In this document: positions 47,460 through 47,915 of the stretch, piece by piece
Layout of the letters: every line of letters starts with the position of its first letter
Numbering within the stretch: the stretch's first letter is position 1
DNA from: a phage
Sequence record: PZ496581.1
DNA length: 64,000 bases
Reading direction: 5' to 3' (one strand)
The notes under the pieces: generated by a model
The model's database searches: none
Told to the model about the DNA's origin: nothing
What the model saw: the letters and a program-made list of their open reading frames with translations, nothing else
Made by a program: the position numbers and the translations under genes

Positions 47460-47915
47460 TTATTTTAGATCTTCGGTCCAATCTAGTTTTAAGGGTTCTT
47501 TGTATTCACGGTCGAGAATAACCGGAATAGCTACATCACCACTGAATGATAGTTGGCCAACGTTATATGATAACGTTATATGTGGAGTGTAGTCGTCGAA
47601 ATCATGAGTAGCACCTAAAGCTCGTGCATACTGATGACGACATCTAAGATATTCAGAATCAAGAACTAAAACCAGTACAGCGCCGTCGTCAGTTTTCCAT
47701 ACCTCAAAGTGTCCTGATTCGGCAACAGAATAACTACCACTAGATGTAGTATATGGTATGTTTACACGTGAATAACAAATTGTTGAATGAAGCTTTTCAC
47801 GTGGTACTGGATTAGGAATTCTTAATTTGCGCTGGAGGTCTTCCAGCGCATCAAGTGTTAATTCCGAAAATTTAGCTGCGACGTAGAGGCCTTGTGAAAA
47901 GTCCTCAAATTTCAT
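47460..47915 (-). CDS. 57B: 2H phosphoesterase; gene 57B, the anti-CBASS nuclease Acb1 in T4
   Basis: Two H-x-T/S-x motifs (HSTI, HITL); 151 aa; position upstream of 57A. Confidence 0.8.

What the first reader, a model, noticed from the sequence alone, without database searches (positions are those of the whole stretch)
47460..47915. 57B is a 2H phosphoesterase, the anti-CBASS nuclease Acb1 in T4
The two H-x-T/S-x motifs (HSTI, HITL) are intact, so the phage likely degrades cyclic-oligonucleotide immune signals. This is relevant to interpreting the NTase and macro-domain genes as parts of a wider counter-defence repertoire.
Basis: established knowledge. Interest (0 to 1): 0.45.

Follow-up and report, generated by a model that had tools for sequence, protein, structure and literature searches.

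The report
Acb1 anti-CBASS enzyme gene, ordinary orthologue
This gene is an intact copy of Acb1 (T4 gene 57B), the already characterised enzyme that T4-like phages use to destroy the cyclic-nucleotide alarm signals of bacterial CBASS immunity; it is an ordinary, well-known feature of such phages.

Summary
Window 47460..47915 on the minus strand is a 151-aa ORF containing exactly two H-x-T motifs, HSTI at residues 43-46 and HITL at 112-115.

The interpretation also holds.
- The protein matches Pfam Acb1 (PF23474) end to end, E=1.2e-58.
- It is 85% identical to T4 57B/Acb1 and 63% identical to the crystallised Erwinia phage FBB1 Acb1 (PDB 7T26).
- Every residue that the Acb1 paper maps as catalytic or ligand-contacting is kept: the catalytic tetrad, four base-stacking aromatics, the adenine-reading Glu and the C-terminal lid.
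- The tetrad is invariant in homologues down to 29% identity.
- dN/dS against T4 is 0.07.
- Gene order is as in T4: ipI, 57B, 57A, 1, 3, 2, 4.

The window is not T4 itself. It is a T4-like coliphage, about 97% DNA identity to phages HY126 and F2, and 75% to T4 across this gene.

[quoted passage not shown] No enzyme activity was tested here.

Public records, including T4 RefSeq, still label this gene "RNA ligase". That label is a misnomer inherited from the 2H/LigT superfamily.

Seen in passing: the same window also encodes a Vs.4/Acb2 sponge homologue and IPI.

Novelty: already known. Interest: low.

The parts
47460..47915 (-). acb1 (gene 57B orthologue) coding sequence, 151 aa plus stop
   Evidence: ORF. 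Pfam PF23474 Acb1, 197.4 bits against a cut-off of 27, profile positions 1-144 of 144. PHROG 755, E=2.5e-65. PDB 7T26 Acb1, E=1.1e-58. 85% identity to T4 57B. dN/dS 0.07 against T4.
47778..47789 (-). First catalytic motif H43-S-T45-I, equivalent to T4 H44/T46
   Evidence: Read directly from the sequence. H and T are invariant in the alignments. Their catalytic role in Acb1 comes from PMC9117128.
47571..47582 (-). Second catalytic motif H112-I-T114-L, equivalent to T4 H113/T115
   Evidence: Read directly from the sequence. H and T are invariant in the alignments. Their catalytic role comes from PMC9117128.
47463..47486 (-). C-terminal lid, residues 144-151 (LDWTEDLK), equivalent to T4 145-152 (LDWADDLK); includes the base-stacking W146
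   Evidence: Alignment shows 6 of 8 residues identical to T4. The lid closes over the ligand (PMC9117128) and is required for activity (bioRxiv 10.1101/2025.08.21.671373).
47915..48145 (-). Gene 57A (tail-fibre assembly chaperone), immediately upstream; its stop overlaps the acb1 start by one base (TAATG)
   Evidence: Pfam GP57, E=5.9e-23. The junction was read. T4 has the same order.
48500..48507 (-). TATAAATA box (T4 late-promoter consensus) inside gene 1; a candidate late promoter for 57A-acb1
   Evidence: Exact motif at the equivalent place in T4 gene 1. Promoter function is inferred, not shown.
47095..47382 (-). ipI homologue (internal protein I, an inhibitor of the GmrSD restriction enzyme), immediately downstream; with acb1 it forms the small anti-defence cluster described for T4
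   Evidence: Pfam IPI_T4, E=1.3e-50. Same neighbour in T4 and F2. The T4 acb1-ipI adjacency is noted in PMC9117128.

Best explanation
The ORF is the orthologue of T4 gene 57B and encodes Acb1, a small single-domain 2H-fold phosphodiesterase. By homology, it binds CBASS cyclic di- and trinucleotides that contain at least one adenosine (3'3'-cGAMP, cUA, cAAA) in a U-shaped pocket. It stacks the bases on Y11, W73, F106 and W146 and reads the adenine N6 with E140. The C-terminal lid then closes over the ligand. The H43/T45/H112/T114 tetrad carries out metal-independent acid-base catalysis: the adenosine 2'-OH attacks the 3'-5' bond, and the ring is linearised through a 2',3'-cyclic phosphate intermediate to a 3'-phosphate product. 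Removing the signal keeps CBASS effectors inactive, so the infected cell does not die before phage progeny are made. The gene is probably co-transcribed and translationally coupled with 57A. Shown here: gene integrity, family membership, residue conservation, synteny and purifying selection. Inferred: enzyme activity, substrate range, timing of expression and the in vivo anti-CBASS effect.
For: - Full-length Pfam Acb1 match, E=1.2e-58, 197 bits against a cut-off of 27.
- PDB 7T26/7T27 FBB1 Acb1, E=1.1e-58, 63% identity over residues 9-148.
- 85% identity to T4 57B with no gaps.
- All nine functionally mapped residues from PMC9117128 are conserved (T4 H44, T46, H113, T115, Y12, W74, F107, W147, E141), and the lid is present.
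- In ten homologues reaching down to 29% identity, only 14 columns are invariant; they include H43, T45, H112, T114, Y11 and E140.
- dN/dS is 0.07 against T4, with synonymous sites near saturation.
- The neighbourhood ipI-57B-57A-1-3 is identical to T4.
- tblastn finds homologues in 1470 phage records, 1466 of them covering at least 80% of the protein.
- T4 Acb1 biochemistry and the delta-acb1 phenotype are in PMC9117128. All nine further orthologues tested there also cleaved cGAMP and cAAA.
- T4 57B becomes important for phage fitness on a CBASS-carrying host (bioRxiv 10.1101/2025.11.20.689424).
Against: There is no direct biochemical or genetic test of this particular protein. It differs from T4 Acb1 at 23 of 151 positions, two of them in the lid (A148T, D149E in T4 numbering), so rate or substrate preference could differ. 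A single-sequence AlphaFold2 model was unusable (pLDDT 36), so the fold rests on sequence identity to a solved structure. NCBIfam has no model for the family.
Confidence: 0.93

Rival explanations
1. It is an RNA ligase or RNA-repair enzyme of the 2'-5' RNA ligase (LigT) type, as most public phage records label it, acting on broken tRNA or RNA ends rather than on immune signals.
For: PHROG 755 is described as 'RNA ligase'. T4 RefSeq and many relatives annotate the gene as 'RNA ligase'. There is a weak Pfam hit to 2_5_RNA_ligase2, E=0.011.
Against: The LigT-superfamily hit scores 16.2 bits, below its 27-bit cut-off, and covers only residues 70-136. That reflects the shared 2H fold, not family membership. 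The T4 protein was purified by following cGAMP-cleaving activity and was shown to be a phosphodiesterase for cyclic oligonucleotides. I found no ligase activity reported for any member in the papers read. The label appears to be an automated transfer.
Confidence: 0.02
2. It is an Acb1-family enzyme whose substrate range has shifted from that of T4 Acb1. For example, it might cleave CBASS signals but spare 2'3'-c-di-AMP or cA3, which would avoid triggering Panoptes guard systems.
For: There are 23 substitutions relative to T4 Acb1. Related 2H phosphodiesterases in the same structural group differ in substrate preference through differences in the enzyme core (bioRxiv 10.1101/2025.08.21.671373). 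Panoptes selects against broad-spectrum Acb1 (PMC13577387).
Against: All mapped ligand-contacting and catalytic residues are identical to T4. The enzyme with shifted specificity, PDE-9 (PDB 9Q2G), is far more distant: E=0.007 to this protein, against 85% identity to T4. All nine tested Acb1 orthologues behaved like the T4 enzyme on cGAMP and cAAA.
Confidence: 0.05

Closest known systems
Phage T4 Acb1 (gene 57B, NP_049750.1)
   Same: 85% amino-acid identity with no internal gaps. Same length apart from one extra N-terminal Met in T4. Identical catalytic tetrad, base-stacking residues and adenine-reading Glu. Same neighbours: 57A upstream and ipI downstream.
   Different: 23 substitutions, two of them in the C-terminal lid. 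Only 75% nucleotide identity. The 57A/57B junction overlaps by 1 base (TAATG) rather than the 4-base overlap in T4.
Erwinia phage FBB1 Acb1 (PDB 7T26 apo, 7T27 with 3'3'-cGAMP)
   Same: 63% identity across the whole crystallised chain. HxT/HxT tetrad and C-terminal lid are conserved.
   Different: FBB1 has Phe where the window and T4 have the stacking Trp (W73/W74), and it has a one-residue insertion after that strand.
2H PDE-9, deposited as 'Anti-CBASS protein Acb1' (PDB 9Q2G/9Q2Y)
   Same: Same 2H phosphodiesterase superfamily and same structural group as T4 Acb1. It cleaves 3'3'-cGAMP.
   Different: Only marginal sequence similarity (E=0.007). Its lid is N-terminal instead of C-terminal, and it largely spares 2'3'-c-di-AMP, so it does not trigger Panoptes.
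2'-5' RNA ligase / LigT superfamily (Pfam PF13563)
   Same: Shares the 2H fold with two HxT/S motifs.
   Different: The match is below the family threshold (16.2 bits against 27). The known activity of the T4 orthologue is cleavage of cyclic oligonucleotides, not ligation.

Membership tests
Acb1 (Pfam PF23474; T4 57B family) | Full-length match to the family profile above the curated threshold | tested here: met
   197.4 bits against a cut-off of 27; residues 8-149 match profile positions 1-144 of 144.
Acb1 (Pfam PF23474; T4 57B family) | Compact 2H phosphoesterase fold | tested here: met
   Met through sequence: 63% identity, E=1.1e-58, over the whole chain of crystal structure 7T26. An independent single-sequence AlphaFold2 model was unusable (pLDDT 36), so no fold search was run.
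Acb1 (Pfam PF23474; T4 57B family) | HxT/HxT catalytic tetrad aligned with H44, T46, H113, T115 | tested here: met
   Window H43, T45, H112 and T114 are aligned and invariant in 3-way and 10-way alignments. The residue roles come from PMC9117128.
Acb1 (Pfam PF23474; T4 57B family) | Nucleobase-stacking aromatics (Y12, W74, F107, W147) and adenine-contacting E141 | tested here: met
   Window Y11, W73, F106, W146 and E140 are identical to T4.
Acb1 (Pfam PF23474; T4 57B family) | C-terminal lid (T4 residues 145-152) | tested here: met
   Present as LDWTEDLK against T4 LDWADDLK, 6 of 8 identical.
Acb1 (Pfam PF23474; T4 57B family) | Position in a T4-like genome between 57A and ipI | tested here: met
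   The flanking ORFs match Pfam GP57 and IPI_T4. T4 and phage F2 have the same order.
Acb1 (Pfam PF23474; T4 57B family) | [quoted passage not shown] | not testable with these tools
   Needs recombinant protein and TLC or HPLC assays. Shown only for T4 Acb1 and nine other orthologues.
Acb1 (Pfam PF23474; T4 57B family) | Protects the phage from CBASS in vivo | not testable with these tools
   Needs a deletion phage and a CBASS-carrying host. Shown for T4.
2'-5' RNA ligase / LigT (Pfam PF13563), the source of the public 'RNA ligase' label | Match to the family profile above the curated threshold | tested here: not met
   16.2 bits against a cut-off of 27, E=0.011, partial (residues 70-136).

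The most novel reading that the evidence does not exclude
This orthologue's 23 substitutions relative to T4 Acb1, two of them in the lid, might have shifted its substrate range. For example, weaker cleavage of 2'3'-c-di-AMP or cA3 would let it disarm CBASS without tripping Panoptes guard systems.
Probability: 0.05. Interest if true: 0.4.

Novelty: already known. Interest (0 to 1): 0.08.

Why it matters
It matters mainly for annotation and host-range prediction. The phage carries an intact Acb1, so it should resist cGAMP-, cUA- and cAAA-signalling CBASS systems. By the same token it should be vulnerable to Panoptes-type guard systems that sense loss of cyclic nucleotides. The gene is still labelled 'RNA ligase' or 'hypothetical protein' in most public phage records, including T4 RefSeq, and that label should be corrected. 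No new biology is implied.

Tried and rejected
- Single-sequence AlphaFold2 prediction gave pLDDT 36 and pTM 0.26. This is too poor for a fold search, so none was run. The large protein-database searches needed to build a deeper alignment were deliberately not spent, because 63% identity to a 1.1 A crystal structure already settles the fold.
- NCBIfam has no model matching this protein.
- The consensus promoter and terminator scan around the gene found no more sites than shuffled sequence would give: 12 promoter-like sites against 9.6 +/- 3.3 expected. It gives no independent evidence on expression. No MotA-box middle promoter was found upstream in the window, although T4 has two pattern matches.
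- The 'RNA ligase' reading was considered and rejected. The LigT hit is below threshold, and the T4 orthologue's measured activity is cleavage of cyclic oligonucleotides.

Full report
**Observation.**
The region 47460..47915 is exactly one open reading frame on the minus strand: ATG at 47915-47913, stop at 47462-47460, 151 aa. The translation contains only two H-x-[ST]-x motifs, HSTI at residues 43-46 (window 47778..47789) and HITL at residues 112-115 (window 47571..47582).

**Identity.**
- The protein matches Pfam PF23474 'Anti-CBASS protein Acb1' over the whole profile (positions 1-144 of 144), E=1.2e-58, 197.4 bits against a cut-off of 27.
- It matches PHROG 755 with E=2.5e-65.
- Among solved structures the best match is 7T26/7T27, Acb1 of Erwinia phage FBB1, E=1.1e-58, covering residues 9-148.
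- I fetched T4 itself (NC_000866; gene 57B at 73952..74410). The window protein is 85% identical to it (128 of 151) with no gaps, E=7e-102. It is 63% identical to the FBB1 chain.
- The only other Pfam hit is the 2'-5' RNA ligase superfamily, below threshold (16.2 bits against 27) and partial. That reflects the shared 2H fold.

The paper that discovered Acb1 (PMC9117128) reports the following:
- T4 57B was purified by following 3'3'-cGAMP-cleaving activity.
- It has a compact 2H phosphoesterase fold.
- It uses an HxT/HxT tetrad (H44, T46, H113, T115) for metal-independent acid-base catalysis through a cyclic phosphate intermediate.
- It stacks the bases on Y12, W74, F107 and W147 and reads adenine N6 with E141.
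- It closes a C-terminal lid (residues 145-152) over the ligand.

The window protein is one residue shorter at the N-terminus. The equivalents H43, T45, H112, T114, Y11, W73, F106, W146 and E140 are all present and aligned. The lid is LDWTEDLK against T4 LDWADDLK.

I then aligned ten homologues reaching down to 29% identity, from Acinetobacter, Aeromonas, Vibrio, Shewanella and Klebsiella phages. Only 14 columns are invariant. They include both histidines, both threonines, Y11 and E140. The catalytic histidines therefore align, and the stated refutation fails.

**Evidence that the gene is real and under constraint.**
- Against T4 57B, nucleotide identity is only 75% while protein identity is 85%.
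- Nei-Gojobori counting gives pS 0.69, pN 0.12 and dN/dS 0.07, which is strong purifying selection.
- tblastn finds the protein in 1470 phage records, 1466 of them covering at least 80% of it. Nearly all are T4-like phages of enterobacteria, Acinetobacter, Aeromonas and Vibrio.

**Context.**
The window is not T4. An 8-kb stretch around the gene is about 97% identical to coliphages HY126 and F2, the latter classified as Tequatrovirus.

Gene order is the same as in T4:
- ipI homologue, 47095..47382, Pfam IPI_T4, E=1.3e-50
- acb1/57B
- 57A, 47915..48145, Pfam GP57
- gene 1 dNMP kinase, 48150..48884
- gene 3

All of these lie on the minus strand. The 57A stop and the acb1 start overlap by one base (TAATG), which suggests translational coupling. 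This is an inference.

An exact T4 late-promoter box, TATAAATA, lies inside gene 1 at 48507. T4 has one at the equivalent position. This fits the middle/late expression reported for T4 57B (bioRxiv 10.64898/2026.03.30.715471). However, the generic promoter scan was no richer than shuffled sequence, so expression signals remain inferred.

**Mechanism.**
This is inferred by homology and not tested here. The enzyme binds adenosine-containing cyclic di- and trinucleotides made by CBASS cyclases and strains the ring. It uses the two His/Thr pairs to drive attack of the adenosine 2'-OH on the 3'-5' phosphodiester, which linearises the signal. CBASS effectors then stay off and abortive infection is avoided.

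In T4 the gene is dispensable on E. coli K-12 but becomes important on a CBASS-carrying host (bioRxiv 10.1101/2025.11.20.689424).

There is a known cost. T4 Acb1 also depletes 2'3'-c-di-AMP and cA3, and so triggers Panoptes guard systems. Natural and selected T4-like phages escape these by breaking acb1 (PMC13577387 and bioRxiv 10.1101/2025.08.21.671373). The copy in this window is intact, so the phage is predicted to be CBASS-resistant and Panoptes-sensitive.

**Rival readings.**
The public label 'RNA ligase' appears in PHROG 755, T4 RefSeq and many other records. It has no support beyond the shared fold, and I give it about 0.02.

A shifted substrate range is possible in principle: there are 23 substitutions, two of them in the lid. 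It is unlikely, because every mapped contact residue is unchanged, and the known example of shifted specificity (PDE-9, PDB 9Q2G) is only marginally similar to this protein (E=0.007). I give it about 0.05.

**What did not work.**
- The single-sequence AlphaFold2 model was unusable (pLDDT 36), and no fold search was run on it.
- NCBIfam has no model for the family.

**Verdict.**
This is an ordinary, intact orthologue of a well-characterised anti-CBASS enzyme in a T4-like coliphage. It is already known and of low interest. Its practical value is annotation correction and predicting sensitivity to defence systems.

Those better-supported genes are the adjacent IPI gene and a Vs.4/Acb2 cyclic-nucleotide sponge homologue at 37298..37711.

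Noticed in passing
window 37298..37711 (-): Homologue of T4 Vs.4, the Acb2 cyclic-nucleotide sponge. Residues 59-137 of the mechanical 137-aa TTG-started ORF match PDB 7UQ2 (Vs.4), E=6.9e-29, and Pfam Acb2_Tad1_hairpin, E=2e-17. The central part is 8 residues shorter than in T4 and diverged. The true start is probably an internal codon. The phage therefore carries both a degrading and a sequestering anti-CBASS protein, as T4 does.
   Followed up: partly
window 47095..47382 (-): Internal protein I homologue (Pfam IPI_T4, E=1.3e-50), immediately downstream of acb1. It begins MKTYQEFI, which from my own knowledge resembles the T4 capsid-targeting leader. A sigma-70-like TTTACA-17-TACTAT site lies in the 77-base spacer at 47445..47417.
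   Followed up: partly
Both genes exist, but nothing here links them functionally to Acb1.
   Followed up: no
window 44636..45588 (-), with ORF 44697..45368 (-): There are only three tRNA genes (Arg-tct, Asn-gtt, Met-cat), against eight in the T4 tRNA cluster. The mechanical 223-aa ORF at 44697..45368 lies between tRNA-Arg and tRNA-Asn; its stop-proximal 15 nt overlap tRNA-Arg (44636..44711) on the same strand. It has weak RAP, DUF559 and NUMOD3 hits, so it is possibly a homing endonuclease comparable to segB in the T4 tRNA region.
   Followed up: no
window 48500..48507 (-), inside gene 1: An exact TATAAATA late-promoter box at the same position as in T4 gene 1 (L001 7013). It is a candidate late promoter for 57A-acb1.
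   Followed up: partly
public records: T4 NC_000866 73952..74410, phage F2 NC_054913 156325..156780, and others: The Acb1 gene is annotated 'RNA ligase' or 'hypothetical protein' in most phage records, including T4 RefSeq. Only a few say 'putative phosphodiesterase' or 'similar to acb1'.
   Followed up: yes
window 28470..29471 (-): A 333-aa ORF with weak AAA/STAND-type P-loop hits and a C-terminal HTH_37 hit, all below Pfam thresholds. Function not examined.
   Followed up: no
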